DNA of 64,000 bases from an uncultured Candidatus Saccharibacteria bacterium (GCA_964518965.1 CAZFJP010000010.1:30787-94786), one strand, 5' to 3'. Numbered from the stretch's first letter, positions 11,841 through 40,613 are shown. Made by a program: numbers and translations. The notes: generated by a model not told the origin, from the letters alone.

Positions 11841-11858
11841 TAATAAAAAGGAGAACTT

Positions 11859-12587
11859 ATGAAAAAAATTTGGTTAATTATTTTAGTCGCAGCGGTTACT
11901 CTTGTTATCGGAGGGGGGGGAATAGCAGGATCATCGTACTTTTATTTTAATCACAAAGCTGCGCAAAAAAATGCTGATTTAAGTAAACAAGTTGATGATT
12001 TAACTTCTCAAGTAAAAGAGCTGAAGAAACAAATTGCTGCGGCAAAGAAGGATGTCGAAGAGGCAGAAAAAGAGACAACGAAGGTAGCGACATTAGATCC
12101 TACCGCTGGTTGGAAAACCTATACTAATAAAAAGTACAGCTATATCTTTAAATATCCACCGGAATATATTCTTGCTAAAAACAACAGCAAGAAAAATTCC
12201 TTAGCAGAGGATGCAAGCGGCAATGTTTCTCTTCAAGGAGATCTTTCTAAGAAAGGTTGGCCTTTAATTGATATTGTTCATTATAATAGTGACTTGTTTA
12301 GTATTCCTACTGGTGCCGATCTTTTAACTTGGTTGAAAAATCATACTGATACTTCTTTAAAAAATACTCTTCCAAATAGTTACAATTACACAATTAAAAC
12401 AACTAGCGGTAAAACTATTAAAGCGGTAAAGGCCTATAGTTCCCAAAGTCCGCAGGCCTATTCTCGACATGAGATTTATTTTGTCCACAGAGGGAAAATG
12501 CTGCGGATTACCATGTTAGATGTGACCCCATCTGGTGCAAAGAATTTTTATAATAATTTTCTATCTACTTTTAGAGCGATTGATTAG
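11859..12587 (+). CDS. Membrane-anchored surface protein, paralog family member 2
   Basis: Same architecture as the previous gene. C-terminal domain begins AGWKTYTNKKYSYIFKYPPEY. The two genes are in tandem. Confidence 0.55.
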   Translation: MKKIWLIILVAAVTLVIGGGGIAGSSYFYFNHKAAQKNADLSKQVDDLTSQVKELKKQIAAAKKDVEEAEKETTKVATLDPTAGWKTYTNKKYSYIFKYPPEYILAKNNSKKNSLAEDASGNVSLQGDLSKKGWPLIDIVHYNSDLFSIPTGADLLTWLKNHTDTSLKNTLPNSYNYTIKTTSGKTIKAVKAYSSQSPQAYSRHEIYFVHRGKMLRITMLDVTPSGAKNFYNNFLSTFRAID

Positions 12588-13519
12588 TGACTAAATTATT
12601 TAAAATCTTTTTACTTGTTGGTGGTGCTGTTGTTCTTACTTTCGGGATTGCTTTTGGTAGTTACGCTGTCGTGAAACACTTTCAAAAGAAGAATGGAGAG
12701 AAGCAAGAACAAAAACAAACGGCGCAAAAAAGTAATCGTCAGGAAAAATCAAAGACAGTAGCGAGAAAAAAACCTGCCTACACATTAGTTTCTTATGCTG
12801 GCATTGTTTTTGGTGCGAAGGTCCCAAGAGGTTGGCAGATTACTGATAATGAAAGTGGCATTGATATCATGAATCCTTCCGATAAGCAAATGGGTGCTAG
12901 TGGGGCAGTTGCAGTTGGTTGGTTTGGAACAGCGACTCCGGACAGTTTTATTGACTTTATGATTAAAGCAATCGGTGGTCATAATGTAAAATATCTGAAT
13001 GTTTCTGTTAAGGAAACAGTTAAAGATCCCTACACTGGGCTTAGGTGGGTAATGCGTACGAAAACTTTTCTTTTTACCAATAAAGAGGGAAAAAGAATTA
13101 AAGCGAAGGCATCGGCGGGAGTTTTGAACGGCTATGGACAGTTTAGCGGAATGATTGTTGCATTTCAATCAACACCGGATAAGTGGAGTAAGTGGGCGCC
13201 GACATTGGAACGTGTCGCCCAATCAATTACGATTATCAACCCGAGTAAAGCCGGAGGGATTGATAAGGTTCGTTTGCCAACGGCAGCGGATTTGGCTAAT
13301 GATTCCTCGCCACTGATGGAAGCATGGGAATATCGCAATCAGGTACAGGAAAAAACTTCTCATGAATTTTCCGATGCCATTATGGGACAAGAATCAGGCT
13401 TATATTCTCCTTCAACGGGAAGATCCTATATACTTCCTTTGACTGCCTACGATCCTACTATTGGCGGCTATCGTAATCCTGATAAACCGTCAGAAATTTT
13501 AAGGGATCGCTATCGGTAA
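12587..13519 (+). CDS. Membrane-anchored hypothetical protein (N-terminal TM, Lys-rich linker, 240-aa extracytoplasmic domain)
   Basis: GTG start overlaps the upstream stop codon by 1 nt, suggesting translational coupling. No motif recognised. Confidence 0.5.
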   Translation: MTKLFKIFLLVGGAVVLTFGIAFGSYAVVKHFQKKNGEKQEQKQTAQKSNRQEKSKTVARKKPAYTLVSYAGIVFGAKVPRGWQITDNESGIDIMNPSDKQMGASGAVAVGWFGTATPDSFIDFMIKAIGGHNVKYLNVSVKETVKDPYTGLRWVMRTKTFLFTNKEGKRIKAKASAGVLNGYGQFSGMIVAFQSTPDKWSKWAPTLERVAQSITIINPSKAGGIDKVRLPTAADLANDSSPLMEAWEYRNQVQEKTSHEFSDAIMGQESGLYSPSTGRSYILPLTAYDPTIGGYRNPDKPSEILRDRYR

Positions 13520-13534
13520 TTTTATTATTTTTTA

Positions 13535-14344
13535 ATGTCACAAACTATGAGAAAAATTTTTGTTATCTTACTTGTTGGATTTTTAATTGTTCTTCTTGGA
13601 GGTGGAACAGTAGCTGGTTATGGTTTTTATCGTGCTTCATTGGTTAAAAGCTATGCTCGTGAAGCGAAGAGAATTATGGAAGAGAGTAATCAAGTTTGGA
13701 GTCAAAAGAAATTAGAGAATACTAATTACACGGAGGAAGAAATTAAAGAGCAGGTGAGATTGATTAGATCGGATAGTGAGAAGCGCTTGAATGAACTAGC
13801 TCAATTGCGGGCTGTTAGAGACGTTAGTGATTTAAAAAGATGGAGTGAAGATTATTTTACTACTGCGAGGGAAATAGCAATTCAATTTGAGAAAGTTTTT
13901 GATTATCTTGATGCTTTGAAAAATGTTGAAGATAGCTTGCGTTCTTTGAGTGGATCAACAAGTGGTTTTGATGAGTTTGCGAGTAAATTCGGTGCTTTTC
14001 ACAAGCGGCTCAATAGTTCATTGACTAAGTTGAAAGAAACTGCTGCGCCAGTTGGTTTTGAGAATTTTCATCAGAGTTTTGTAAAGTACTTGGATAATTT
14101 GGATCAACTAATTGTTGATGCAGTGGACGCGGCCAAAAAACATGATGCTAATAAGCTGAATACTTTTGGGCCGGAGTTTGACAAGTTAATTAAAACAGGC
14201 GAATCAATTAAACCGCCTGCCGAAGACCAAACTTTTGAGAAAATTGCGACTAGAGAAAATAAAGATATATTAAGAGAGTATCCTGACAAGGTGAAGAGAG
14301 AAGCTGATCTTTTACTTAAAACTAGATTCAGTTTTAATTTCTAA
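13535..14344 (+). CDS. Membrane-anchored, mostly helical hypothetical protein
   Basis: N-terminal TM ILLVGFLIVLLGGGTVAGYGFY. The rest is rich in predicted helices. Confidence 0.5.
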   Translation: MSQTMRKIFVILLVGFLIVLLGGGTVAGYGFYRASLVKSYAREAKRIMEESNQVWSQKKLENTNYTEEEIKEQVRLIRSDSEKRLNELAQLRAVRDVSDLKRWSEDYFTTAREIAIQFEKVFDYLDALKNVEDSLRSLSGSTSGFDEFASKFGAFHKRLNSSLTKLKETAAPVGFENFHQSFVKYLDNLDQLIVDAVDAAKKHDANKLNTFGPEFDKLIKTGESIKPPAEDQTFEKIATRENKDILREYPDKVKREADLLLKTRFSFNF

Positions 14345-14346
14345 AT

Positions 14347-15522
14347 ATGAATAAAATTCTCAAATGGCTTGTTATTCCACTTATTGTTGTAATCATTGCT
14401 TTTGCAGGTTACTTTCTTTATCAGAAGTTTATCAAGGCAAAACAGACTCCAGCAGGAATTACTAAAACTCAAAGCAAAATTCAATTGACTATTCCGGAGA
14501 AGATCCTTAATAACAAGTTTGGTTTTCTTTCTGGTGGAGTAAAAGATATTAAAACAATTAAAGAGTATGGTGCTGCTTGGGTAAGACCACACCCGGGACC
14601 GTTTCTTTGGGATGCGATGCAGGATAATAAAGATAGTCAAATTGATTTCGTCAATAGTGATGAAGTAGTAACCCGTTACTCGGAAAATGAGCTGGGAATT
14701 GTAGCAACAATCTGGCCGTTTGCGGAATGGGATCAAAAGAATCATCCTAACTATGCGGCTTGCCGAGTAAGTGATAACGATGAGTTTTTACCCAAGAACG
14801 ATAAGAAGGGTCGTGGTGATTATTTGCCTTATCATCGCGGGAATCCTTATGACTGGGCGAGTTATCAAAACTGGGTGATGGAAGTAGTAGAACGTTATGA
14901 TGGAGATGGTAACGAAGATATGCCAAATTTAAAGATCCCAATTAAGTATTGGGAGGTAATGAATGAACCAGATCTGGAGAGTCCTGAGGGAGATCAAGGT
15001 AGCCGTTTGGATTTTTATAAGGGTGATGCCAGTGATTATGCACAATTGTTGATTAAGACCAGCGAAGCAATTCGTAAGGCTGACTCTGAAGCAGAGATTT
15101 TAATTGCTGGCGCTGCGGGAGGTAATAATACTTTCTTGGATTTTTATCGTTCCGTTTTTAAAAATAAGAAAGCTATTGCGGCATTTGATATTGGTAATGT
15201 CCATTGTATTTCAAATGATAGTTATGATTCGTTTAATGTTGAACCTTATAAGAAAATGTTGGCGGAGTTTGGAGTCAAGAAACCGATTTGGGTGACAGAA
15301 GCGGAGGCGTTTATTTATCAGGATGCCGGTTCTAATGCAACACAAACATTTAATAGTGTAAGGAAAGCACTTTCGTTGGGTGCGCAACGAATTTTCTTCA
15401 CCCGCTATGAGTTTAAGCAAAAAGGGGAAGGTGTAAAACCGCCGCTTTATTCCGCACCGATTAAGATAACCATAAAAGGGGAAGACCCCAGAGCGGCTTA
15501 TCAGAAAATCATTGGTCAATAG
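14347..15522 (+). CDS. Membrane-anchored glycoside hydrolase, clan GH-A (GH5-like TIM barrel)
   Basis: YWEVMNEPD (candidate acid/base NEP motif) and IWVTEAEAF (candidate nucleophile Glu) are spaced as in GH5/GH39-type enzymes. N-terminal TM. Confidence 0.5.
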   Translation: MNKILKWLVIPLIVVIIAFAGYFLYQKFIKAKQTPAGITKTQSKIQLTIPEKILNNKFGFLSGGVKDIKTIKEYGAAWVRPHPGPFLWDAMQDNKDSQIDFVNSDEVVTRYSENELGIVATIWPFAEWDQKNHPNYAACRVSDNDEFLPKNDKKGRGDYLPYHRGNPYDWASYQNWVMEVVERYDGDGNEDMPNLKIPIKYWEVMNEPDLESPEGDQGSRLDFYKGDASDYAQLLIKTSEAIRKADSEAEILIAGAAGGNNTFLDFYRSVFKNKKAIAAFDIGNVHCISNDSYDSFNVEPYKKMLAEFGVKKPIWVTEAEAFIYQDAGSNATQTFNSVRKALSLGAQRIFFTRYEFKQKGEGVKPPLYSAPIKITIKGEDPRAAYQKIIGQ

Positions 15523-15567
15523 TACTTAATTTGCTATAACTAGTTTACTTTTTAATTAAAAGAGAAG

Positions 15568-16311
15568 ATGAAGCTCAAGTTATTTCTCCATAGTTTTCTA
15601 ACAGTAATGATTGCCGCAGGGTTAGTGATGATTTTTCTACCTCAAAAAGTACTTGCCGATGATGATGACTTGCATGTAAAAGTGGAGGCTTCAACTGATG
15701 GTGGCAATACTTGGCACACTTATGATGGCACTGAATTTAAAGATGGTGAGAGTGTTGCATTGAAACCAGGTGGTTGGTTCAAGTTTCGGGTTAAGCTGTG
15801 GAATACTTACACTAAAGACATGACTGACATTAGGGGTTATTTAGTGTTTTATTTGAATCAAAGCAAGTGGGTTTTTGAACCCTTGAGTATGTCACAAATT
15901 GATTTGGACACCGATGGTAATGGTCGTTCTTATTATGGAATACTTGCGGAGATTTCTAATTTGGCTACTCCGGTAGGGGGAATGATTAGTCAGTTGGATG
16001 CCAATGGGACTGAAGAAACAGCAGAAATTTGTGAGTTTAGTATGCAAGTTAAGCCAGAGGATGAGCTACCTCCAGGAGAGATAGTGGTCCGAGGAGTTGC
16101 AAAAGTGTTATCTTACGAACAATCAAGAGCCGGCGAGATTTCAGTGAAAACTGCAATTGATGTTAACCTCTACTCGAGTTTTAGAGGTGTCTTAAATGTT
16201 ACTACTAGTGAAGAATTGGTTGCATCAGGAATAAATTTTCCCCTCTTGTTTCTAATTCCGTTTTTTCTCAGTATTTTAGGTTGGTTTGCTTTTCGTAAAT
16301 TTACTGCTTAA
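15568..16311 (+). CDS. Secreted protein with signal peptide and C-terminal TM anchor with basic tail
   Basis: Signal peptide MKLKLFLHSFLTVMIAAGLVMIFLPQKVLA. C-terminal INFPLLFLIPFFLSILGWFAFRKFTA. Confidence 0.5.
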   Translation: MKLKLFLHSFLTVMIAAGLVMIFLPQKVLADDDDLHVKVEASTDGGNTWHTYDGTEFKDGESVALKPGGWFKFRVKLWNTYTKDMTDIRGYLVFYLNQSKWVFEPLSMSQIDLDTDGNGRSYYGILAEISNLATPVGGMISQLDANGTEETAEICEFSMQVKPEDELPPGEIVVRGVAKVLSYEQSRAGEISVKTAIDVNLYSSFRGVLNVTTSEELVASGINFPLLFLIPFFLSILGWFAFRKFTA

Positions 16312-29692: not shown

Positions 29693-31732
29693 ATGACAAG
29701 TTTTGATGAATATTACAAAGCGCGTTTAAAGAAACTTGAAACAATTAGAAAAGCAGGTATTAATCCCTATCCTGCTCAATCAAAGCGGAATTATAATTGT
29801 TTTCAAGCACGTCATGATTTTAACAAACTTAAAAAAGCGATTACTTTGGCAGGTAGATTGATGAGTTTGCGTGAGCATGGCAAGTTGACTTTTGCTAATC
29901 TCCAGGATGAAACAGGCAAGTTTCAGTTAGCATTTAAGGAAGATTTACTGAAGAAAGATTATGATTTTCTGAAGAAGCTCGATTTGGGTGACTTTATTGA
30001 AGTTACTGGTAAGTGTTTTAAAACGAAACTTGGGGAAAAGACCCTTGCTGTTGAAAAGTTGGTTTTATTAGCAAAATCATTGCGACCATTGCCAGAGAAA
30101 TGGCATGGATTAAAAGATGTGGAATTAAGATACCGCAAACGTTATTTGGATTTGATTATGAATGAAAAAACGCGGCGGGTTTTTTATCTGCGCTCGCAGA
30201 TGATTGACGCAATCCGCGATTTTTTGACTGATCGAAATTTTCTAGAGGTAGAAACTCCCATTTTGCAAGCAACTCCTGGTGGTGCGGTAGCAAAGCCATT
30301 TGTGACACATCATAATGCTTTGAATACTGACTTTTATCTCCGCATTGCTCCGGAACTTTATCTTAAGCGTCTTATTGTGGGCGGTTTTGAGAAGGTCTTT
30401 GAGATAAGTCGTAACTTTCGGAATGAGGGGATTAGCACTGTTCACAATCCGGATTTTACGATGTTGGAGTTTTATTGGGCCTATAAAGATTATAATGCCC
30501 TGATGGAATTAACGGAAGAATTGTTTACTTATCTTTTACAACGTTTGAAATTGGAAACCAAGATTAAATATCAGGGTAAACAAGTTGATTTTAAAACCCC
30601 CTGGAAAAAGATTACTTTTACTGATTTATTGAGAGAGAAAGCAGGATTAGATATTACTAAATTTAATACTCGTGAAGAATTACTACCCTTCGCGGAAAAA
30701 TTGGAAGTTAATATTACTCCTGAGATGGGAGCAGATAAGATTATTGATGAAATTTTTAAAAAGAAAATTCGTCCCCAGATTATTAATCCTTTGTTTGTTA
30801 TTAACCAACCATTATTTCTTTCGCCTTTAGCGAAAAAACGAATGAAAAATGAAAAAGAGGTTGAGCGTTATCAGTTAATTATTGGGGGACTGGAAATTGT
30901 TAATGCCTATTCTGAATTAAATGATCCCATTGACCAACGGGGACGTTTTGAGGAACAACAAAAGTTACGTAAGATGGGCGATGAAGAAGCTCATCCACTG
31001 GATGAAGACTATATTGAGGCATTGGAATACGGCATGCCACCTACAGCGGGGTTCGGTTTAGGAATTGACCGCTTGGTGATGATTTTGGCTAATTGTTCCA
31101 ATATCCGAGATGTTATTTTGTTCCCTGTTTTGAAACCAAAAGGTGCTGTTCTTACTGATAAGGGAGGAAAAGGCAGGGTAATGCTACGTGAGGAAGCGCT
31201 CATTTTACTTAAACGAAATCTCAAGAATGCTAATTTATTTAAACATACTCTTGCTGTTGAGGCCTGTATGAAAGAAATCGCAAAGGACAAAGGTGTTAAT
31301 AAAGAGGTTTATGGCCTAGCGGGAATTCTTCATGATCTTGATTATGAACAAACCAAGAAAACACCTTGTAAACATACTCTTGAAACTGCTGCGATTCTGG
31401 AAAAAGAGGGGGTTCGGGATGATATTATTCAGGCAATTAAAGCGCATAACGAAGCTTGTGGTGGCGTTTGTGAGTCACAAATGGACTATGCATTACGAGC
31501 AGTTGATCCAACAACGGGGTTAATAGTAGCGGCTACTCTCGTTTTGCCTGATAAAAAACTTAAATCTCTTACTGTAGAGTTCATTTTGAAGAAGTTTAAA
31601 TCTAAGTCTTTTGCTGTCGGTTGTGACCGCAATCAAATCAAGTCGTGTGAGAAATTAGGATATACCATAGAGGATTTTTTCGCGCTTTGTTTAAAGGCGA
31701 TGCAGAGGATTGATAAGGAGCTGGGGTTATGA
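29693..31732 (+). CDS. lysS: Lysyl-tRNA synthetase (class II) fused in-frame to a C-terminal YqeK-like HD-domain phosphohydrolase
   Basis: Residues 1 to about 495 form the LysRS core, ending IRDVILFPVLKP. Residues about 497-679 are an HD domain (LFKHTLAVEACMKEIAKDKGV...LAGILHDLD). An internal GGGAGGAAAAGG precedes an in-frame ATG at 31181. Confidence 0.85.
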   Translation: MTSFDEYYKARLKKLETIRKAGINPYPAQSKRNYNCFQARHDFNKLKKAITLAGRLMSLREHGKLTFANLQDETGKFQLAFKEDLLKKDYDFLKKLDLGDFIEVTGKCFKTKLGEKTLAVEKLVLLAKSLRPLPEKWHGLKDVELRYRKRYLDLIMNEKTRRVFYLRSQMIDAIRDFLTDRNFLEVETPILQATPGGAVAKPFVTHHNALNTDFYLRIAPELYLKRLIVGGFEKVFEISRNFRNEGISTVHNPDFTMLEFYWAYKDYNALMELTEELFTYLLQRLKLETKIKYQGKQVDFKTPWKKITFTDLLREKAGLDITKFNTREELLPFAEKLEVNITPEMGADKIIDEIFKKKIRPQIINPLFVINQPLFLSPLAKKRMKNEKEVERYQLIIGGLEIVNAYSELNDPIDQRGRFEEQQKLRKMGDEEAHPLDEDYIEALEYGMPPTAGFGLGIDRLVMILANCSNIRDVILFPVLKPKGAVLTDKGGKGRVMLREEALILLKRNLKNANLFKHTLAVEACMKEIAKDKGVNKEVYGLAGILHDLDYEQTKKTPCKHTLETAAILEKEGVRDDIIQAIKAHNEACGGVCESQMDYALRAVDPTTGLIVAATLVLPDKKLKSLTVEFILKKFKSKSFAVGCDRNQIKSCEKLGYTIEDFFALCLKAMQRIDKELGL

Positions 31733-34598: not shown

Positions 34599-34763
34599 TG
34601 TCACATTGTTTGTGTCGTATAAGATACATTGTACGACTAGATTAAACAATCAAACAGATAGGTTAGATAGGTTTTGGGAAAGCACTTCTTTATTCTCTAT
34701 TTTTCCCTATTCTATTTATTTAGGATAGAACAAATTATTTAGGTTATTTTTAGGATAGAACAA

Positions 34764-34800
34764 ACAAAAAACACCCCTTTATTAGGGTGTCTTTATTATT
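34764..34800. terminator. Bidirectional terminator (acaccc/gggtgt stem with A-tract and T-tract)
   Basis: aaaaaacacccctttattagggtgtctttattattt between convergent genes. Confidence 0.5.
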
Positions 34801-34818: not shown

Positions 34819-35619
34819 CTAGCGAATTGGATTCTGCCAAGCAAAATCTTTTTGGAGATAAGGATTACTACTTCCCCGGTAGAAACGGTTAGCATCGCAT
34901 TGAGGAATAATGGCACTTCTTAAACTGATAAATCGAAGAGGGTTGATGCCATAACAGCGGTTACCGCGCCATTGGTCAATTTCAAAGTGTAAATGAGGGT
35001 TTAAGGCACCGCTTTGGCCTACTCTGCCGATTAGCTGTCCTTTTATTACTCGCTGACCCTTTTTAACGTAAATTGTGGACAAATGACCATAAGTAGTACG
35101 ATATCCTAAACTATGTTTTAGAACGATTGTATTACCAGCTAGAAAACCACGATAGCAAACAATGCCTGATTCTGCTGCATAAACCGGTAGACCGTAACGA
35201 GCAGCGAAATCAATACCATTATGACGATTGTTCCAGATGGGATATTTAACATTAGCGGGCTTTAAAATCGCCTTCACGTAGCCAAAAAGACCGTAAACAA
35301 ACCAAGTATCTCCTCCTTGAGCGATAAACTGGCCGTTTTTAACTAAAAAGCCGTGATAACTGTTCCCTACTTTATAGCGAATGACGTTACGACTAGTAGT
35401 ATTGTGCCAGTGGGAACTTACCTTGAAGGGAAGTTGGGGATGAAAAGAGCCGCTAATTTTTGTCACGGATGTGGAAGTAGATTTAGCAGTGGTTTGTTTT
35501 ACCACTTCTCTACCCGGTTTTTTCTCTCCAACCAGAGAAAGAGTGGGGAAAGTAGCTCCCAAAACTGTTTGAAGGCCAAGAACCAAACTTAGAACTAAGC
35601 TTAAAGGTTGGGAAAGCAC
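34819..35619 (-). CDS. M23-family metallo-endopeptidase (peptidoglycan hydrolase)
   Basis: HNGIDFAA...GNTIVLKHSLGYRTTYGHLS...PHLHFEI. Signal peptide. Confidence 0.85.
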   Translation of the reverse strand: MLSQPLSLVLSLVLGLQTVLGATFPTLSLVGEKKPGREVVKQTTAKSTSTSVTKISGSFHPQLPFKVSSHWHNTTSRNVIRYKVGNSYHGFLVKNGQFIAQGGDTWFVYGLFGYVKAILKPANVKYPIWNNRHNGIDFAARYGLPVYAAESGIVCYRGFLAGNTIVLKHSLGYRTTYGHLSTIYVKKGQRVIKGQLIGRVGQSGALNPHLHFEIDQWRGNRCYGINPLRFISLRSAIIPQCDANRFYRGSSNPYLQKDFAWQNPIR

Positions 35620-35714: not shown

Positions 35715-35769
35715 GATCAAAAAATCAAGATTTGACAAACCCATTTATTTGGATTAACTAAATCTTGAT
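35715..35769 (-). terminator. Hairpin terminator downstream of the ATPase gene
   Basis: 10-bp perfect inverted repeat atcaagattt/aaatcttgat with a T-tract on the minus strand. Confidence 0.45.
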
Positions 35770-35797: not shown

Positions 35798-38623
35798 TTA
35801 TTTTTTTTCTTCTTCTGGAACCTCCGGAATATTAGTGCTTTCCCCTGAAAGAATGTTATCAATATTTTTAGTATCTAAAACTTTGTAAGATTTTCCTTCT
35901 ACTTTGATACTGTCTTCACGAGGAGGAAAGGTTAAAGAAGTTTTTGGTCGTGGACGAGATGGTGAATAACGGTCGGGACGATGATGATAAAAGTTTTGAC
36001 TACTTCTGGAATGACTGCGACGTTTGTGGTTCTTTTCCCGGCGTGCCCGTTCTTCTTTGACACTTTCAATTGTGGCTTCACTCCAACGTCCGATTTTTTC
36101 TTCAATTACTTCTCTTCTGCGTCCATAACGTTCTCGAGATACTCGGACGGCTTTATCGTGATTATTAGTAATATCAGTATAAGGTTCAAGTGTAGTAGCA
36201 CTAAATGCTCTACTGGTTATGCCGTCAATAGCAAGTTTAACGTAAATGTCATATTTATCAAGATCAACCAAATCCATTGCAGTGATTGTTGGCATCGTTT
36301 CCTGTTCAATAAATTCAGCATCAACAGCACCTATTCTAAAAATAATCATCGTGCCAACATTGCCAAATACTGCATCACGTACTTCTTCCTCCATTTGAGT
36401 AATGTACTGATGGGCAATTGTTAAACTTAGACGATATTTGCGGGCTTCAGAAAGAATTGTAGCAAAAGACTCGGTTGCAAAGTTTTGAAATTCATCAACG
36501 AAAAGGTAGAAATCTTTACGTTTATGTTCTGGTATATAAGCGCGACGCATTGCTCCTAATTGCATTTTGGTGATTAACATTGCTCCGAGCAAAGCACTAT
36601 TATCTTCACCAATGCGACCCTTACTGAGATTAACCAAAAGAATTTTTCCTTGATCCATAATCTCTTCGATGTCAATAGTACTTTTGGTCTGACCCAGAAT
36701 ATTGCGCATTATTGGATTGCTAACGAATTGTCCAACTTTATTTTGAATTGGAGCAACAGCTTCGGCGCGCAAGCGATCATTATAATTAGCAAATTCATTT
36801 ATCCAAAAGGCTTTTACAACTGGATCTTTGATTGTTTTAATAACCTTCTTGCGGTATTCGCTGTCAGAAAGCATGCGCAGAATACCGAGAATTGTTGAGC
36901 TGGGATATTCAAGTAGGGCTAAGATTGTATAACGTAAAATGTATTCCAAACGCGGTCCCCAAGATTCGGCCCAAATCTTTTTAAAGATACCAATTAAACC
37001 AGAGGCAACCAATCCTCTAAATTCCGGGTCAACGTTTTCCAAGACATTGAAACCAATGGGAAAATCTTGGTCGGAGGGATTGAAGTAAACGACGTCATTA
37101 ATACGGTTATTGGGAATAAAGTCTAATACTCTCTCGGCAAGATCGCCGTGAGGGTCAACTAATGCTACTCCTTTATTGCGACGGATATCAGAAATGATCA
37201 TATTGCCTAACATTGCGGTTTTACCCATACCAGTTTTACCAATGACGTAGATATGACGGGTACGATCTTCGTCTTTAATACCAAAAGGAACTTTGTTCTC
37301 GCGGAAGTTGGTTTGAGCAAAAATCGTTAAGTCCTCAGTTGAACCCTCAATTGGCAGGTTAACTGGTGCAGCAGCACGTTTAGAAGTAATTTTGTGAATG
37401 GTAGGAACTTTGACGTGGATCTCTGGCAAGTGATAAATAGTTGCTAATTCTTCGGTATTTAAGACAATACCACGGTCCCAGTAGCTAAATTCTCGTTGTT
37501 GAAATTGCTTTAGAAATTTGCGCTTTTTCCAATTGGTCCAGAATTTTAGTTCAAACCAGCCTATTTTTCCTTTGGTAAACTCAGCAAATTTGAAAGCGTT
37601 TAAATTATTAGTTTTAAATTGTTGAAATGCACCAACAATTTGAGGGATTCTTGTTTTAAGTGAGAAAACGTCTTTATCAGCCATGTAAAGGATGCGGATT
37701 TTGCACTCATAGCCCGGTTTAGAAATTTTTTGGCCAACACGCATAACAATCTCACGTTCAGTATCAATAAGAAGTGGCAGACGTTCAAATTCATTCTTTT
37801 GAGTGGACGGAGTTTCCGATTCTACGCCCATGGTGCTCGAAACAGTTCTACTGATTGTTTCTTGAGTAAGCGCTAACGCGTTACTTAAAGCACCTGCTTT
37901 TACTTCTGGTTTCTCGCCTTTAATCTCATTAATAATATTCTCCCCCTCTTTGATCCAATAATCATCGACAGTCGGACGAGTAAGGATCTGGATCCAGTAC
38001 TGTTCTTTTTCGCCAATCCGATTCATGATGGAGGTTAATCCTTCCATTGCATCAATACGTGCTTCTTCAGTTTTCACCTGACGCTCGATTTCTGGATAGG
38101 AGCGAATTGGATAGGCGTTTTCTTTGAAGAAGCGGAACTCAAAACCGGCCATATCATGTTTGTTCCAGTCAAAAGTGTTAGTATAATCTTTCACTTCTTC
38201 AATTTCGGCATCGGGGTAAGCCGCGTGGATTTGGCTAATAATAATATCTTTGAAGTTATCTGGAACACCGACGAGATAATAAATTTGCCCGCCAATAGAG
38301 ACAATTTCCCAGCTAACATGTTCCAAAACCTGTCCCTTCCAATACAAATCAAATCCCTCAATAGGCTGCCACATTCCTTGGATATTGGCGAACATTTGTT
38401 CTGCAGTAAGAGGGGTTTTTTCATTCTCGCGCGGCACTTGAATTTTAAGTATGGTGTGCTTTTGTTTACTTATCCAGATGCGGCGACGAGTATCGAGATA
38501 TAGCGGGAAAAGGACGAAATAAACCAAGATACCAAAAAGTCCCCACCAACCATAGTGGAAGGTGAGGGTTGCAGTGGCGATAATTCCATTGAGGAAACTT
38601 TTGAGAATTTCGTTAATTTCCAT
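35798..38623 (-). CDS. Membrane-anchored FtsK/HerA-superfamily ATPase of the VirD4/TraG/TrwB (type IV coupling protein) type, with a roughly 430-aa N-terminal domain of unknown function
   Basis: Two N-terminal TMs. Walker A block HIYVIGKTGMGKTAMLGN...VALVDPHGDLAE resembles TrwB. Walker B YLFVDEFQNF. RKYRLSLTIAHQYITQM resembles the TraG/VirD4 C-terminal motif. Basic low-complexity tail. Confidence 0.6.
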   Translation of the reverse strand: MEINEILKSFLNGIIATATLTFHYGWWGLFGILVYFVLFPLYLDTRRRIWISKQKHTILKIQVPRENEKTPLTAEQMFANIQGMWQPIEGFDLYWKGQVLEHVSWEIVSIGGQIYYLVGVPDNFKDIIISQIHAAYPDAEIEEVKDYTNTFDWNKHDMAGFEFRFFKENAYPIRSYPEIERQVKTEEARIDAMEGLTSIMNRIGEKEQYWIQILTRPTVDDYWIKEGENIINEIKGEKPEVKAGALSNALALTQETISRTVSSTMGVESETPSTQKNEFERLPLLIDTEREIVMRVGQKISKPGYECKIRILYMADKDVFSLKTRIPQIVGAFQQFKTNNLNAFKFAEFTKGKIGWFELKFWTNWKKRKFLKQFQQREFSYWDRGIVLNTEELATIYHLPEIHVKVPTIHKITSKRAAAPVNLPIEGSTEDLTIFAQTNFRENKVPFGIKDEDRTRHIYVIGKTGMGKTAMLGNMIISDIRRNKGVALVDPHGDLAERVLDFIPNNRINDVVYFNPSDQDFPIGFNVLENVDPEFRGLVASGLIGIFKKIWAESWGPRLEYILRYTILALLEYPSSTILGILRMLSDSEYRKKVIKTIKDPVVKAFWINEFANYNDRLRAEAVAPIQNKVGQFVSNPIMRNILGQTKSTIDIEEIMDQGKILLVNLSKGRIGEDNSALLGAMLITKMQLGAMRRAYIPEHKRKDFYLFVDEFQNFATESFATILSEARKYRLSLTIAHQYITQMEEEVRDAVFGNVGTMIIFRIGAVDAEFIEQETMPTITAMDLVDLDKYDIYVKLAIDGITSRAFSATTLEPYTDITNNHDKAVRVSRERYGRRREVIEEKIGRWSEATIESVKEERARREKNHKRRSHSRSSQNFYHHRPDRYSPSRPRPKTSLTFPPREDSIKVEGKSYKVLDTKNIDNILSGESTNIPEVPEEEKK

Positions 38624-38642
38624 TAATTTAATTTAGGGGTTC

Positions 38643-39767
38643 TCAGCATTTGAGCTGGTACTTGCCGTTACTGTTTTTCTGGAAAGCGGGATTATTTCTG
38701 AGGTTGAAGGTGACGGTGTTCTTTTTAACTTGGCGTTTTTCCAAAACTTTTTCGATGATTTCTTTCTCCCTCATTGGACCGTTTTCTTTGAGAAGACGCT
38801 TGATGATGTCGGAAACAGTTCCTTCTTCATAGCCCCATTCCTTCAGGGCATAGATTCCTCTTCCGATTAAGACAATGTTAGGATCACGAATTAATTCGTT
38901 ATGAACTGTCTTGACAGTCGCCTTGCGGGCAAATTTAGATTCGTTGACTTTCTTAGCAATTTCTACAAAATGCATTGGTTTACCATAAGCACGCATTTCT
39001 AGGAGAATAACATCGCGAACACTTCTGGGTTGTACTTCACGCCAAGTTTTTAATCCCCATTTGTTCTCTTCTACTTCAATTATTTTATGTCCTGTTTCCA
39101 TACAGGCACGAATGAAATCGGGGTTCAGAACAGATTTATTTTTTTCGTAGAAAGGATGATTTTTCAATGAGGCGACTACTTGATTATGATCAGTTAATTG
39201 GTGTTCTTTTTCCAAAATTTCTTTTAAAACATCAATAGTGGGGAGAACTAATTCTTTAGGTGTACCTTTCAGACTCCAGGAAGGTAAAAGCTCAGGGTGT
39301 TTTTCCATTACTTCTAATTCTTCCTCTATCTCAAGCAATAAGCGAACGATATTTTTGTTAGCTTCATTCTCCTCTGAGGCAGAAAGAACAATACTGATTA
39401 GTTTATCCTCAGTAATTAAACCAGCGTTGTTTTTGATACTTTCAATAATTAACTGGCGGGTTGCTCTAAAGTTCTCGGTTTTAGCTTTTTGGGACATTTT
39501 TTTGAGAGCATTGTTGACAATTTGGCGAACTCTTTCTCTGGTTACTCCTTCTTCTCTGCCGATTTTTTGGAGAGTTTTTGGTTTACCATCTAAAAGTCCG
39601 AAGCGTTTTAGGATAATCTTCTTTTCTCTCTCACGCAAGGTACCCAAGAGAAAATCTAAAGCTTCCTTAGGGCTAAAATTTTGGATTAAAGACTCGGTTT
39701 CAGAGACAAGAATATTATCCAATATGGAACTAGGAGTTCCAGTTGAAGTGGTGGTTTTCTTTTGCAT
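38643..39767 (-). CDS. DNA-binding protein with sigma-70 region-4 HTH followed by two HARE-HTH-like domains
   Basis: TLQKIGREEGVTRERVRQIVNNALKKM matches the sigma region-4 signature. Two downstream modules end in ...NKWGLKTW and ...GIYALKEWG (HARE-HTH-like). A TTGGCA-15-TATAAT promoter and a hairpin-containing 5' UTR are upstream. It is 20 nt upstream of the ATPase gene. Confidence 0.55.
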   Translation of the reverse strand: MQKKTTTSTGTPSSILDNILVSETESLIQNFSPKEALDFLLGTLREREKKIILKRFGLLDGKPKTLQKIGREEGVTRERVRQIVNNALKKMSQKAKTENFRATRQLIIESIKNNAGLITEDKLISIVLSASEENEANKNIVRLLLEIEEELEVMEKHPELLPSWSLKGTPKELVLPTIDVLKEILEKEHQLTDHNQVVASLKNHPFYEKNKSVLNPDFIRACMETGHKIIEVEENKWGLKTWREVQPRSVRDVILLEMRAYGKPMHFVEIAKKVNESKFARKATVKTVHNELIRDPNIVLIGRGIYALKEWGYEEGTVSDIIKRLLKENGPMREKEIIEKVLEKRQVKKNTVTFNLRNNPAFQKNSNGKYQLKC

Positions 39768-40053
39768 AAAAATTCTCCTTGACTCCCGCCCAGAGGCGGA
39801 AATTAATTTAATTATAGATAAGTGATTAAGATGCCAAAAATAAAAAATGAGAGGATTTTTCCTTCCCTATCGTATCATAACGGCTTTGATTATACACTAT
39901 CTATAATTACTTGTCAAGAGTTTCAATTTTGAAGGTTCTGTTCTGTAATGTTGCGGCCGCAAATAGTATTAGTAGCACAACTAGTACACAATGTTACTTA
40001 ATTATATCAAAAAAACCGCTAATTGTCAATGAAATTAGGCGGTTAAACATGAA

Positions 40054-40095
40054 TTAAGGGAGTATGTCTAGATAATATTCCAGCTACTCCCTTAA
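40054..40095. promoter_or_regulatory. 11-bp perfect inverted repeat TTAAGGGAGTA (20 nt) TACTCCCTTAA
   Basis: Seen directly. Lies in the 437-nt intergenic region upstream of the sigma4/HARE gene. Confidence 0.3.
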
Positions 40096-40204
40096 TCCGT
40101 TTGTCCAAACCACACTCCGGTCTATCTGGCCTATGTGGGGTTTTGTCGGGCTAACCTTGTAATTTGTCACAGATGAAACTCTGCGCTTAAGAACTTAGTT
40201 TAAT

Positions 40205-40420
40205 TTACCATTCGCCTAAGGTATTACCTTGTTTGTCTTTAAAGGATCCAGTTAAAATCATAATCACGTCCACTAACCAACCAATACCAAAGACTCCACC
40301 CGTGAGTAACCAAACGATACCAGTACCAATTTTACCCACATAGAAACGATGCACTCCTAGGCCTCCTAAAAAGAAGCATAAGAGAAAGACAATTAATCTC
40401 TTTTTTTCTTGTTCTGCCAT
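40205..40420 (-). CDS. TM2-domain small membrane protein
   Basis: [36 protein letters not shown]. Confidence 0.75.
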
Positions 40421-40539: not shown

Positions 40540-40613
40540 TGGCTCGGGGACTAGGATTCGAACCTAGATTAACAGGACCAAAACCTGTCGTCCTACCATT
40601 AGACGATCCCCGA
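40540..40613 (-). tRNA. tRNA-Gln (anticodon UUG), CCA encoded, U1-A72
   Basis: TCGGGGATCGTCTAATGGTAGGACGACAGGTTTTGGTCCTGTTAATCTAGGTTCGAATCCTAGTCCCCGAGCCA. Confidence 0.85.

What the first reader, a model, noticed from the sequence alone, without database searches (positions are those of the whole stretch)
35798..40204. Operon coupling a sigma-70 region-4 / tandem HARE-HTH DNA-binding protein to a membrane-anchored FtsK/VirD4-like ATPase with a novel 430-aa N-domain, behind a 437-nt inverted-repeat-rich intergenic region
Seen in sequence. Two minus-strand genes lie 20 nt apart (38643-39767, then 35798-38623), with their own promoter (TTGGCA-15-TATAAT) and a terminator (10-bp IR at 35724-35769). 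The first protein opens with a textbook sigma region-4 HTH (TLQKIGREEGVTRERVRQIVNNALKKM) but lacks regions 2 and 3. It continues with two modules ending WGLKTW and YALKEWG, the signature of HARE-HTH domains. Established knowledge places HARE-HTH domains in RNAP delta and in restriction and DNA-transfer contexts. The second protein has two N-terminal TMs, an unrecognised 430-aa domain, and an ATPase whose Walker A neighbourhood (HIYVIGKTGMGKTA...VALVDPHGDL), Walker B (FYLFVDEFQNF) and RKYRLSLTIAHQYITQM block resemble TrwB/VirD4/TraG coupling proteins. No relaxase, VirB4 or other T4SS part is in the window. The upstream 437-nt spacer carries a 12-bp GC palindrome TTGCGGCCGCAA (39949-39960), an 11-bp perfect IR (40054-40095) and further imperfect hairpins, which resembles an oriT or operator region. 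Inference: a stand-alone DNA-binding plus DNA-translocating ATPase module, for example DNA uptake or transfer, or a defence or epibiont-interaction function. This pairing is not a described system as far as I know. An M23 peptidoglycan hydrolase (34819-35619) is encoded immediately downstream, which would fit envelope-spanning machinery.
Basis: partly seen in the sequence, partly recalled or inferred. Interest (0 to 1): 0.65.

Follow-up and report, generated by a model that had tools for sequence, protein, structure and literature searches.

The report
Conserved CPR sigma-like protein/coupling-ATPase operon
This is a real two-gene operon, conserved across the ultra-small Patescibacteria (CPR), that pairs a DNA-binding protein built from a copy of sigma-factor region 4 plus several winged helices with a membrane ATPase of the conjugation "coupling protein" type; nobody knows what the pair does, but it can be tested in a cultivable species.

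Summary
Genes 38643-39767(-) and 35798-38623(-) exist, lie 19 nt apart and end at a terminator. Gene 1 encodes primary-sigma region 4 (no regions 2/3) plus 3-4 tandem HARE-type winged helices. Gene 2 encodes a single-pass (not two-TM) membrane ATPase.

The pair is syntenic in 53 of 74 informative loci across many Patescibacteria classes. The setting is always chromosomal housekeeping, with no T4SS or relaxase genes. In 34 of 84 loci DUF8128 and the ATPase are separate ORFs.

The spacer is not oriT-like. Its conserved elements are two tandem perfect TTGACA-17-TATAAT promoters, the only two in the window. The palindrome and inverted repeat are lineage-specific. M23 is a separate, lineage-specific unit.

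Published Tn-seq in Southlakia epibionticum scores the partner orthologue essential and the ATPase dispensable.

Best reading (confidence about 0.4): a relaxase-independent coupling-protein motor with a dedicated DNA-binding connector. This is a new variant of a known kind, and its function is unknown.

The parts
38643..39767 (-). Gene 1: 374-aa sigma-region-4 / tandem HARE-type winged-helix protein (orthologue of S. epibionticum SEML1_0294)
   Evidence: ORF. Pfam Sigma70_r4 and HARE-HTH. At least 4,667 homologues of uniform ~350-385 aa. The orthologue is scored essential by Tn-seq (PMC10633639 Table S1).
39468..39662 (-). Sigma region 4.1+4.2 copy (residues ~36-100), including the invariant TL..IG....TRER.RQI block
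   Evidence: A PDB profile search matches B. subtilis SigA 298-368 at E 7.5e-22 and many RpoD/SigA region-4 chains. The invariant columns are T65 L66 I69 G70 T76 R77 E78 R79 R81 Q82 I83.
38646..39467 (-). Array of winged-helix modules: residues 101-174 (degenerate), WH1 175-247, WH2 248-314 (Pfam HARE-HTH), WH3 315-374
   Evidence: Pfam PF05066 at 258-311. TIGR04567 at 177-246. hhalign between segments. DPAM calls three 'winged' domains in the S. epibionticum orthologue.
35798..38623 (-). Gene 2: 941-aa membrane-anchored DUF8128 + coupling-protein-type ATPase (orthologue of SEML1_0293)
   Evidence: ORF. Pfam and NCBIfam hits. At least 2,949 homologues. AF2 models.
38495..38551 (-). Single N-terminal transmembrane helix (residues ~25-43), followed by a positive cluster (DTRRRIWISKQK), which predicts that the rest of the protein is cytoplasmic
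   Evidence: Kyte-Doolittle scan: one hydrophobic peak here and in 14 of the 15 aligned homologues; the 15th falls just under the cut-off.
37334..38476 (-). DUF8128 domain (residues ~50-430), with a VirB4-N-terminal-domain-like fold
36074..37318 (-). P-loop ATPase domain (residues ~436-850) with Walker A GKTGMGKT, VDPHGD, Walker B FYLFVDEFQNF and RKY...QY..Q. An all-alpha insertion at residues ~533-657 corresponds to nt 36653-37027.
   Evidence: Pfam PF10412, PF01935, PF12696 and PF02534. Invariant motifs. Foldseek against TrwB: E ~2e-12, TM 0.61-0.66 normalised to TrwB; also Cagbeta, DotL and HerA. Secondary structure of the model.
35801..36073 (-). Low-confidence, Ser/Pro/Arg/Lys-rich C-terminal tail (residues 851-941)
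   Evidence: Composition: 21 K+R against 15 D+E. Family tails are net basic, median +8. In relatives P0004/L088 and P0110 this tail carries an S1 domain.
40001..40029 (-). Promoter P1: TTGACA-17-TATAAT with a TG extension (12/12)
   Evidence: It is one of only two 12/12 sites in the 64-kb window. The block is conserved in L001 and L088.
39889..39917 (-). Promoter P2: TTGACA-17-TATAAT (12/12), with conserved spacer and flanks (ATGAAACyCTTGACAAG...TTATAGATrGTGTATAATCA)
   Evidence: Across the phylum, 28 of 42 partner genes have a promoter matching at least 11/12 in their upstream intergenic region, against 18 of 224 for other genes (Fisher p 8e-16).
39775..39780 (-). Shine-Dalgarno AAGGAG of gene 1, preceded by the hairpin CCGCCtctgGGCGG (39786-39799)
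   Evidence: Sequence; hairpin.
35724..35769 (-). Intrinsic terminator ending the two-gene unit
   Evidence: AAATCAAGATTT...AAATCTTGATTTTTT, dG -20.6 kcal/mol, z -3.1.

Best explanation
This is an ancient chromosomal operon found throughout the Patescibacteria.

Gene 1 encodes a DNA-binding protein. It is a near-copy of primary-sigma region 4, followed by three or four HARE-type winged helices. It keeps every residue that sigma-70 uses to read the -35 hexamer.

Gene 2 lies 19 nt downstream with no ribosome-binding site of its own. It encodes a single-pass membrane ATPase of the coupling-protein (T4CP) lineage found on Firmicutes mobile elements. Its parts are a VirB4-NTD-like DUF8128 domain, a TrwB-like P-loop domain with an all-alpha insertion, and a basic tail that carries an S1 domain in some relatives.

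Shown:
- the domain identities;
- the phylum-wide synteny;
- the housekeeping context without T4SS or relaxase genes;
- the two conserved tandem consensus promoters;
- published Tn-seq scoring the partner orthologue essential and the ATPase orthologue dispensable in S. epibionticum.

Inferred:
- The ATPase is a coupling-protein motor that has been uncoupled from relaxase-based conjugation. It acts at the inner face of the membrane on a nucleic-acid or nucleoprotein substrate.
- The gene-1 protein is its DNA-recognition connector. This is the role TraM/Aux2-type relaxosome accessory proteins play for plasmid T4CPs, and the role the gamma winged helix plays for FtsK.
- Through its sigma-4 domain, the gene-1 protein probably also binds its own perfect -35 elements.

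The channel that the motor serves is left open. It could be the Patescibacteria T4SS encoded elsewhere, or the ComEC DNA-uptake route.
For: - Domain calls.
- Link to a genuine coupling protein: an HMM built only from the CPR N-domain finds the 913-aa protein that sits next to the relaxase-family gene and the conjugation operon of B. subtilis plasmid NZ_OX419568.1 (E 1e-21; C-domain E 4e-47). It does not find that plasmid's VirB4-like ATPase.
- Synteny: 53 of 74 loci, with gaps of -1 to 502 nt. A residual same-strand linkage survives in Peregrinibacteria.
- No T4SS or relaxase gene in the window or in 84 loci.
- Nucleic-acid-binding hints: basic tails and S1 fusions.
- The sigma-4 DNA-reading residues are invariant.
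- Consensus promoters are enriched upstream of the partner gene.
- The literature gives the connector precedent (PMC8829557) and reports orphan T4CP homologues in 2,918 of 3,035 assemblies, only 148 of them near virB4 (PMC12102498).
Against: - No physical interaction between the two proteins has been shown. The one apparent fusion (L072) is an artefact of masked N bases.
- In S. epibionticum the partner is essential while the ATPase is not. The partner must therefore do something beyond serving this ATPase.
- The linkage is broken in Gracilibacteria, in the Uhr-/Magasanikbacteria-type group and in one Saccharibacteria subclade.
- The substrate is unknown. T4CPs can also move proteins.
- ATPase tail length does not track partner adjacency.
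- HARE-HTH in RNA polymerase delta binds polymerase rather than DNA (my own knowledge), so the winged helices need not bind DNA.
Confidence: 0.4

Rival explanations
1. The partner is mainly an essential transcription or nucleoid factor. As a sigma-region-4 mimic it would bind -35 hexamers and/or the RNA polymerase beta-flap, helped by delta-like HARE modules, and it would autoregulate at its own perfect promoters. The ATPase would be an independent coupling protein, for example for protein substrates of the T4SS. On this view the operon linkage is regulatory or historical, not physical.
For: - The partner is essential while the ATPase is not.
- Its region 4 is nearly identical to primary sigma in the -35-reading helix and keeps region 4.1.
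- Promoters matching 11-12 of 12 consensus positions lie upstream of the partner gene far more often than upstream of neighbouring genes: 28/42 against 18/224.
- The partner stands alone next to a HIT gene in Gracilibacteria, and Peregrinibacteria carry a second paralogue.
- Gene 1 has a strong ribosome-binding site and gene 2 has none, which suggests an abundant partner and a scarce ATPase.
Against: - Tight adjacency in 72% of loci across very deep lineages is unusual for functionally unrelated genes.
- No region 2 is present, so the protein cannot be a sigma factor.
- It has no acidic tail of the kind that defines delta.
- Consensus promoters may simply reflect high expression.
Confidence: 0.3
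2. The ATPase is specifically the motor for natural-transformation DNA import, taking the place of ComFA behind ComEC. The partner would handle or recognise the incoming DNA.
For: - In S. epibionticum the ATPase is dispensable in co-culture, as ComEC is. ComFC is annotated there, but no ComFA entry appears in the tables.
- Patescibacteria are naturally competent and scavenge DNA (PMC10633639; PMC6744442).
- DprA and TopA lie upstream in Saccharibacteria loci.
- The tails are basic or carry S1 domains.
- NCBIfam shows a weak hit to the archaeal DNA-importing ATPase CedD.
Against: - No coupling protein is known to work with ComEC.
- ATPase-mutant reads fall about 4-fold over passages while ComEC-mutant reads stay flat. 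That points to a growth role beyond competence.
- dprA-topA adjacency is common in bacteria generally (my own knowledge).
- The partner's essentiality is left unexplained.
Confidence: 0.12
3. The ATPase is harmful when left unchecked, and the upstream protein is essential only because it represses or restrains it. This would be antitoxin-like conditional essentiality.
For: An essential upstream gene with a dispensable downstream gene is the classic signature of such pairs. An autoregulatory promoter architecture is plausible.
Against: - Both families are core, highly conserved and single-locus in reduced genomes. They evolve slowly, with many invariant columns at ~45% identity.
- The partner persists without the ATPase next to it.
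- Neither protein matches a defence or toxin-antitoxin family beyond generic domains.
Confidence: 0.06
4. The pair is a remnant or cargo of an integrated conjugative or mobile element, with the spacer serving as oriT.
For: The ATPase is homologous to plasmid and phage coupling-type ATPases. The window spacer contains inverted repeats.
Against: - No relaxase, integrase or Mpf gene is in the window or in 84 loci, and the neighbours are housekeeping genes.
- Synteny is vertical and phylum-wide.
- The palindrome and inverted repeat are absent from relatives.
- No compositional anomaly beyond a skew shift at the gene-strand switch.
Confidence: 0.02

Closest known systems
Type IV coupling proteins (TrwB/VirD4/TraD), in particular the DUF8128-bearing T4CP-position protein of B. 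subtilis plasmid NZ_OX419568.1 (WP_213380696.1)
   Same: - N-terminal membrane anchor.
- P-loop domain with the TrwB_AAD_bind and TraG-D_C signatures and an all-alpha insertion.
- Foldseek TM 0.61-0.66 to TrwB.
- Full-length homology (N-domain E 1e-21, C-domain E 4e-47) to the plasmid protein encoded next to a relaxase-family gene.

   Different: - It is chromosomal and has no relaxase or Mpf genes nearby in any of 84 loci.
- It is near-universal in a whole phylum-level radiation.
- Its tail is basic or carries an S1 domain, whereas TraD's tail is acidic (the TraD tail is my own knowledge).
- It is paired with a sigma-4/HARE protein that accompanies no plasmid or phage copy.
VirB4 (TrwK of R388)
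   Different: - No CagE_TrbE_VirB or AAA_10 sequence signature.
- The CPR N-domain HMM does not detect the VirB4-like ATPases of the Bacillus plasmid or of phage G.
- It is not encoded in a T4SS cluster.
- By sequence, the ATPase half is nearer to T4CPs.
Orphan 'T4CP homologues' of Patescibacteria (Quinonero-Coronel et al. 2025, PMC12102498), and S. epibionticum SEML1_0293/SEML1_0294 (Wang et al. 2023, PMC10633639)
   Same: Same family and same gene pair. SEML1_0293 (TrwB_AAD_bind, non-essential) lies directly downstream of SEML1_0294 (Sigma70_r4 + HARE-HTH, essential). Both are flagged as core and as Patescibacteria-enriched.
   Different: In the text and tables I searched, those papers list the genes in tables or count the ATPase. 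I did not find the pairing, the VirB4-like N-domain, the split or fused forms, or the promoter architecture described there.
Relaxosome connector proteins (TraM of F, Aux2 of pLS20), and the FtsK/SpoIIIE gamma winged helix or Streptomyces TraB-clt
   Same: These are the working analogy: a DNA-binding module that gives a hexameric membrane translocase its DNA address. TraM-type proteins bind the T4CP tail. The FtsK gamma and TraB cases are from my own knowledge.
   Different: - The folds differ (RHH plus helical bundle in the connectors, against sigma-4 plus HARE winged helices here).
- No oriT or relaxase is present.
- FtsK carries its winged helix in cis, and the organism has a separate canonical FtsK with a gamma domain (SEML1_0096).
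Primary sigma factor region 4, and RNA polymerase delta subunit (HARE-HTH)
   Same: Region 4.1+4.2 aligns with B. subtilis SigA 298-368 at E 7.5e-22, with the -35-reading residues invariant. The HARE modules match PF05066 and, weakly, the delta model TIGR04567.
   Different: - There is no region 2 or 3, so it cannot open promoters.
- There is no acidic C-terminal tail as in delta.
- It has three to four winged helices where delta has one.

Membership tests
Type IV coupling protein (VirD4/TrwB/TraD) | P-loop NTPase domain of the TrwB/VirD4 type, by sequence signature | tested here: met
   PF10412 scores 37.8 bits (cut-off 20.5), PF12696 27.5 (22) and PF02534 26.6 (20.1). A PDB profile search hits TrwB at E 2e-5 and DotL at 1.4e-4.
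Type IV coupling protein (VirD4/TrwB/TraD) | TrwB-like fold with an all-alpha domain inserted in the nucleotide-binding domain | tested here: met
   Foldseek against TrwB chains: E ~2e-12, TM 0.61-0.66 normalised to TrwB. The model has a helical insertion at residues ~533-657. This rests on a model, not an experiment.
Type IV coupling protein (VirD4/TrwB/TraD) | N-terminal membrane anchor | tested here: met
   One hydrophobic helix at residues 25-43 followed by a basic cluster.
Type IV coupling protein (VirD4/TrwB/TraD) | Full-length homology to a protein in the T4CP position of a conjugative element | tested here: met
   HMMs built only from CPR sequences hit the 913-aa protein next to the replication-relaxation gene of plasmid NZ_OX419568.1 (N-domain 1e-21, C-domain 4e-47).
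Type IV coupling protein (VirD4/TrwB/TraD) | Genetic linkage to a relaxase and/or mating-pair-formation genes | tested here: not met
   None in the window or in 84 loci. The literature finds only 148 of 5,713 Patescibacteria T4CP homologues near virB4.
Type IV coupling protein (VirD4/TrwB/TraD) | Delivers substrates to a T4SS channel | not testable with these tools
   This needs genetics or biochemistry. In S. epibionticum the T4SS is essential but this ATPase is not.
VirB4 | VirB4-type N-terminal domain | tested here: met
   [not shown]
VirB4 | VirB4 sequence signatures (CagE_TrbE_VirB / AAA_10) and a place inside a T4SS cluster | tested here: not met
   No such Pfam hit at E <= 0.1. No VirB4 among the PDB sequence hits. 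No T4SS genes nearby.
FtsK/SpoIIIE | FtsK_SpoIIIE motor signature, a gamma winged helix and a 4-TM N-domain | tested here: not met
   PF01580 reaches only E 0.065, 13.1 bits against a cut-off of 24, and there is no gamma domain. A canonical FtsK exists separately in S. epibionticum.
Sigma-70 family sigma factor | Region 2 (core binding, -10 recognition) together with region 4 | tested here: not met
   Only Sigma70_r4 is found. No r2 or r3 hit appears at E <= 0.1, and all NCBIfam sigma models score far below their cut-offs and match only their C-terminal ~70 residues.
HARE-HTH domain proteins | A match to PF05066 above the gathering score | tested here: met
   33.7 bits against a cut-off of 25.9 at residues 258-311. 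The other modules are related to it by hhalign.
RNA polymerase delta subunit (RpoE) | A single N-terminal HARE-HTH domain followed by a polyanionic C-terminal tail, scoring above the TIGR04567 cut-off | tested here: not met
   TIGR04567 scores 31.4 bits against a cut-off of 42. The C-terminus is Lys-rich, not acidic.
Known anti-phage defence systems (PADLOC) | Protein matches to the system's components, with the co-located partners | tested here: not met
   Only generic domain hits: mad8 at 6.5e-16 on the ATPase core and MzaA on sigma region 4. No partner components are present.

The most novel reading that the evidence does not exclude
The sigma-region-4/HARE protein is not only a connector but the cargo. 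The adjacent coupling-protein ATPase would recognise it and hand it to the essential Patescibacteria T4SS. It would then be injected into the host bacterium, where a near-perfect copy of primary-sigma region 4 could dock on the universally conserved beta-flap or on -35 elements and take over host transcription. This would be a phage-style 'sigma appropriation' strategy used by an epibiotic bacterium.

A less extreme version is that the pair forms a relaxase-independent, sequence-addressed DNA pump that is specific to and universal in CPR.
Probability: 0.05. Interest if true: 0.9.

Novelty: new variant of a known kind. Interest (0 to 1): 0.6.

Why it matters
Patescibacteria make up a large share of bacterial diversity, have tiny genomes and live on other microbes. 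Genes that are both core to this group and enriched in it are the best clues to how that lifestyle works. This operon joins two such families. Published Tn-seq scores one of them essential in a cultivable species, and neither has an assigned function.

Three results sharpen the picture:
- The phylum's "orphan" coupling-protein ATPase has a VirB4-like N-domain that it shares with coupling-type proteins of Firmicutes plasmids and phages.
- It is wedded to a sigma-4/winged-helix protein instead of a relaxase.
- The pair is driven by unusually perfect tandem promoters.

Together these turn a vague "T4CP homologue, possibly exapted" into concrete hypotheses: connector plus motor, -35 mimicry, DNA import or T4SS feeding. 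All of these can be tested in Southlakia epibionticum with SEML1_0293/0294. The ATPase also combines a VirB4-type N-domain with a VirD4-type motor, which bears on how VirB4 and VirD4 diverged.

Tried and rejected
1. A partner-ATPase fusion in L072 would have been a Rosetta-stone link. It is an artefact of a masked run of N bridging two genes.
2. The spacer as oriT or operator. The NotI palindrome and the 12-bp inverted repeat are missing from L001 and L088. The segment between the two promoters is a lineage-specific insertion.
4. M23 as part of the module. It has its own promoter after a terminator and is adjacent only in the window's close lineage.
5. A defence system. PADLOC gives only generic domain hits.
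6. FtsK orthology is rejected.
7. A known RNA in the spacer. Rfam finds nothing meaningful, even at E <= 1.
8. The idea that no-partner loci are a separate paralogue. Clustering of the ATPase domains shows lineage-specific loss instead.
9. The idea that C-terminal tail length or charge tracks partner adjacency. It does not (p 0.34 and 0.45).
10. A replication terminus or dif site next to the module. GC skew drops from about +0.2 to about 0 where gene orientation flips, but does not turn negative. This is inconclusive.
11. A partner next to the non-CPR or viral-contig copies. There is none.
12. Things I could not do. The original HARE-HTH paper was not held under the id I tried. The exact-match look-up of the ATPase failed, although the identical protein P0001 is in the collection. 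No paper mentions DUF8128.

Full report
**1. Observation**

They are 19 nt apart, and the junction (gaacccctaaattaaatta) has no Shine-Dalgarno sequence. Gene 1 has AAGGAG seven nt before its ATG.

Protein 1 matches Sigma70_r4 at residues 40-91 (E 7.5e-14). It has no region 2 or 3. It also matches HARE-HTH at residues 258-311, above the Pfam cut-off. NCBIfam sigma models match only through their last ~70 residues, and the RNAP-delta model TIGR04567 matches residues 177-246 below threshold.

I cut an 18-sequence family alignment into segments and compared them profile to profile. The results were WH2~WH3 95% probability, WH1~WH2 89.5%, and WH1~residues 101-174 83%. The protein is therefore sigma region 4 plus three, perhaps four, tandem HARE-type winged helices.

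Protein 2 matches TrwB_AAD_bind, DUF87, TraG-D_C and T4SS-DNA_transf above their cut-offs. FtsK_SpoIIIE reaches only E 0.065.

The downstream terminator looks real: a 12-bp stem plus T-run, dG -20.6 kcal/mol, z -3.1.

Two details need correcting:
- There is one TM helix (residues ~25-43), not two. A basic cluster follows it and places the rest of the protein in the cytoplasm.
- The "unrecognised" N-domain already has a Pfam accession, PF26449/DUF8128. It is newer than the local Pfam copy but is precomputed in the protein database.

**2. The N-domain and the ATPase**

A model of residues 1-882 (pLDDT 78.3) aligns with TrwK end to end over ~920-940 columns at E ~1e-12. Its C-terminal half alone superposes on the coupling protein TrwB (TM 0.61-0.66 normalised to TrwB), and also on Cagbeta, DotL and HerA. 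The model shows an all-alpha insertion at residues ~533-657 inside the P-loop domain, as TrwB has.

By sequence, the ATPase half is nearer to coupling proteins. A PDB profile search finds TrwB (2e-5) and DotL (1.4e-4) but no VirB4.

The decisive link came from outside CPR. tblastn found two-domain relatives in Bacillus phage G (gp156), in Geobacillus phage TP-84, on a Priestia megaplasmid and on B. subtilis ~64-kb plasmids. An HMM built only from the CPR N-domain (residues 50-430) detects:
- the 913-aa plasmid protein at E 1e-21;
- phage G gp156 at E 9e-29;
- the TP-84 protein at E 3e-13;
- the Priestia copy at E 8e-49.

It does not detect the VirB4-like ATPase of the plasmid, nor phage G gp155, which is annotated "VirB-like". 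On the plasmid, the 913-aa protein sits immediately before a replication-relaxation-family gene and upstream of conjugal-transfer genes. That is the position of a coupling protein. DUF8128 plus this ATPase is therefore the architecture of a class of Firmicutes coupling proteins, and the CPR protein is a full-length homologue of them.

**3. Conservation and synteny**

Both proteins belong to very large families: at least 2,949 and at least 4,667 hits, with both searches capped by the candidate limit. The hits that carry a source name are almost all labelled Patescibacteria lineages; one MAG is labelled Nitrospirota.

A scan of species-representative genomes returned 80 loci. They come from Saccharibacteria, Gracili-, Peregrini-, Uhr-, Buchanan-, Magasanik-, Doudna-, Falkow-, Nomura-, Kerfeld-, Morani-, Lipton- and Harrisonbacteria. 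Together with four loci found by exact look-up, the counts are:
- 53 of the 74 loci with enough upstream sequence carry the partner directly upstream on the same strand. The gaps run from -1 to 502 nt, median ~45.
- In 34 of 84 loci, DUF8128 and the ATPase are two adjacent ORFs, split at the same profile position. This shows DUF8128 is an autonomous module.
- Three loci have tandem full-length duplicates.

Clustering of the ATPase domains shows that the no-partner loci are lineage-specific. They are the Uhr-/Magasanikbacteria-type group, Gracili-/Peregrinibacteria and one Saccharibacteria subclade, not a separate paralogue. In Peregrinibacteria the partner and the ATPase are still on one strand, separated by HIT, DnaE and AspRS. 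In Gracilibacteria the partner stands alone beside a HIT gene.

The other recurrent neighbours are housekeeping genes. TopA and DprA lie upstream, SecDF is nearby, and FtsQ, FtsW, MraY, MurG and a PBP are convergent downstream. There is no VirB4, VirB6, relaxase or integrase.

The window itself is ordinary chromosome. It encodes MreCD, ribosomal proteins, NusG, GreA, aminoacyl-tRNA synthetases, RecR, SbcCD, an AddA-like helicase-nuclease, ScpAB and PBPs.

M23 is adjacent only in the window's close lineage (window, L001, L002, L088). It follows the terminator and has its own 11/12 promoter.

The partner accompanies none of the phage, plasmid or viral-contig copies.

**4. The spacer**

The scan found two perfect TTGACA-17-TATAAT promoters on the coding strand (-35 elements starting at 40029 and 39917). 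They are the only two 12/12 sites on either strand of the 64-kb window.

Both promoter blocks are nearly invariant in L001 and L088, including much of the spacer and flanks. The proteins of those relatives are only 63-68% identical to the window's. In contrast, the ~54-nt stretch between the promoters, which holds the NotI palindrome, is absent from those relatives. So is the 12-bp inverted repeat upstream, and the 5' leader does not align there either.

Across the phylum, 28 of 42 partner genes have a promoter matching at least 11/12 in their upstream intergenic region. For other genes in the same loci the figure is 18 of 224 (Fisher p 8e-16). For perfect 12/12 matches it is 12/42 against 2/224 (p 4e-9).

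Rfam finds no known RNA in the spacer. The oriT reading is not supported. A pair of strong tandem promoters, possibly autoregulated, is the conserved feature.

**5. The partner's sigma-4 domain**

A profile of the family matches B. subtilis SigA residues 298-368 at E 7.5e-22. It also matches dozens of RpoD, SigA and RpoS region-4 structures, covering both 4.1 and 4.2.

The invariant family columns are T65 L66 I69 G70 T76 R77 E78 R79 R81 Q82 I83. By my own knowledge of the sigma-70 region-4/-35 structure, these correspond to the TL..(V/I)G and TRER.RQI residues that contact the -35 hexamer. The inference is that the protein can read TTGACA-like DNA and/or dock on the beta-flap. Without region 2 it is not a sigma factor, and without an acidic tail it is not delta.

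**6. Experimental data from the literature**

Quinonero-Coronel et al. 2025 (PMC12102498) report VirB4 in 2,417 of 3,035 Patescibacteria assemblies. They report 5,713 VirD4-type homologues in 2,918 assemblies, only 148 of them near virB4. They note that the S. epibionticum copy is non-essential and may have been exapted.

The tables of Wang et al. 2023 (PMC10633639) show the same pair in S. epibionticum ML1.
- SEML1_0293 is the ATPase. It carries TrwB_AAD_bind at residues 402-719 and is scored NE/NE/NE. Its normalised reads fall from 5817 to 2939 to 1372 over the passages.
- SEML1_0294 lies directly upstream of it. It has Sigma70_r4 plus HARE-HTH, and DPAM assigns it one tri-helical and three winged domains. 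It is scored ES/ES/ES, with 24 insertions in the input DNA and one at T0.
- Both genes are flagged as core and as Patescibacteria-enriched.

The same genome has:
- a canonical essential FtsK with a gamma domain (SEML1_0096);
- a second, essential T4CP-like paralogue (SEML1_0142);
- a dispensable ComEC;
- ComFC, but no ComFA entry.

Wang et al. state that the essential T4SS lacks a recognisable coupling protein and relaxase. Term searches of the text and tables of these two papers, the sections I read of the CPR protein-family paper and the paper searches I ran turned up no discussion of the pairing.

**7. How it most likely works**

The shown facts are listed in sections 1 to 6. The inference is as follows.

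The ATPase is a coupling-protein motor of the Firmicutes mobile-element lineage. It has become a chromosomal, relaxase-independent core gene of Patescibacteria. It is anchored by one TM helix, and its VirB4-like DUF8128 domain and P-loop ring face the cytoplasm. By analogy with TrwB the ring would be a hexamer, but this was not tested. Its tails are net basic across the family (median +8), and some relatives carry an S1 domain there. Both features hint at a nucleic-acid substrate.

The partner would be the connector that brings DNA to the motor. TraM/Aux2-type proteins do this for plasmid coupling proteins, and the gamma winged helix does it for FtsK. Through its sigma-4 domain the partner probably also occupies its own perfect -35 elements.

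The channel is open. It could be the T4SS encoded elsewhere, whose cluster lacks a coupling protein, or the ComEC uptake route.

I put this at about 0.4. The main weakness is that the partner is essential while the ATPase is not, so the partner must have a further role.

The strongest rival (about 0.3) is that the partner is mainly an essential -35/RNA-polymerase-binding factor and the linkage is only regulatory. The other rivals are:
- a ComFA-replacing DNA-import motor (about 0.12);
- an antitoxin-like restraint of a harmful ATPase (about 0.06);
- a mobile-element remnant (about 0.02, largely refuted).

**8. Comparison with known systems, and novelty**

The ATPase passes most sequence and fold tests for a coupling protein. 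It fails the genetic-context test, having no relaxase or Mpf linkage. It shares the VirB4 N-domain fold but not the VirB4 sequence signatures or context. It is not FtsK.

The partner is neither a sigma factor nor delta. I found no described system that pairs a sigma-4/HARE protein with a coupling protein.

I rate the finding a new variant of a known kind, with interest 0.6. Both families are core and specific to a huge, poorly understood radiation. One is essential. Function is unknown for both, and a genetically tractable organism carries the pair.

The most novel reading not excluded is that the sigma-4 protein is a T4SS-delivered effector that hijacks host RNA polymerase. I give it about 0.05.

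Noticed in passing
window 39889-40029 (-); also L001, L088 and 42 survey loci: The only two perfect TTGACA-17-TATAAT promoters in the 64-kb window sit in tandem upstream of the partner gene. Near-perfect promoters are strongly enriched upstream of partner genes across the phylum (28/42 against 18/224). Autoregulation by the protein's own sigma-4 domain is an untested idea.
   Followed up: yes
L005-L084 (34 of 84 loci), e.g. L005 5926-7392 and 7402-8982: In many classes DUF8128 and the ATPase are two adjacent ORFs, split at the same profile position (~388-392). They are fused in the window lineage, Saccharibacteria and Gracili-/Peregrinibacteria. This parallels the separate TrsD protein (remotely homologous to the N-terminal portion of VirB4) that PMC12102498 notes in pGO1-type systems.
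   Followed up: yes
L088 8001-11159 (P0004); P0110: Some close relatives carry an S1 (OB-fold, single-stranded nucleic-acid-binding) domain fused to the ATPase C-terminal tail.
   Followed up: partly
L102 (Bacillus phage G gp155-gp156), L101 (Geobacillus phage TP-84, 754-aa protein), SPO1 gp27.4: Large Bacillus/Geobacillus phages encode DUF8128 + ATPase proteins, or the ATPase only in SPO1-like phages. In phage G the gene follows one annotated 'VirB-like'. Their role in phage biology appears to be unannotated.
   Followed up: partly
[not shown]
   Followed up: no
L011, L024, L048: These loci carry tandem full-length duplicates of the DUF8128-ATPase gene. Where the upstream copy's surroundings are visible, only the downstream copy can be judged for partner adjacency.
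   Followed up: partly
L093-L100 (IMG/VR contigs): Contigs classed as viral encode stand-alone ATPase-domain proteins (416-488 aa), up to 61% identical to the window's ATPase half. No detectable DUF8128 and no partner is present.
   Followed up: partly
L089/L090 1-488 and 7001-8077: This Peregrinibacteria contig carries two paralogues of the sigma-4/HARE protein within 7 kb.
   Followed up: no
window ~34.6-35.0 kb: Gene orientation flips from + to - here, and GC skew drops from about +0.2 to about 0. The intergenic region holds a direct repeat, TTTAGGATAGAACAAA x2 (34722-34765), and a bidirectional terminator-like hairpin (34767-34794). This may be a replication-related switch, but it is not resolved.
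   Followed up: partly
window 39809-39820 and 39898-39909: A 12-nt perfect inverted repeat (TAATTATAGATA / TATCTATAATTA) links the spacer of promoter P2 to a site just upstream of the gene-1 ribosome-binding site. The downstream copy is not conserved in L001 or L088.
   Followed up: partly
window 11115-16311 (+): Six consecutive same-strand ORFs (241, 242, 310, 269, 391 and 247 aa) follow tRNA-Pro. They have no Pfam hits or only marginal ones, so this is an uncharacterised operon.
   Followed up: no
window 29693-31732 (+); also L088 15834-17915: A class II Lys/Asp/Asn-type aminoacyl-tRNA synthetase carries a C-terminal HD (phosphohydrolase) domain (E 7e-9). The fusion is conserved in a relative.
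   Followed up: no
window 40205-40420 (-) and 40540-40613 (-): A small TM2-domain membrane protein and tRNA-Gln lie upstream of the spacer. The TM2 gene keeps this position in L001 and L088, although extra genes are inserted between it and the partner there.
   Followed up: partly
window 38624-38642: There is no Shine-Dalgarno sequence in the 19-nt junction before the ATPase gene, whereas gene 1 has a strong AAGGAG. This suggests translational coupling or a low ATPase:partner ratio.
   Followed up: no
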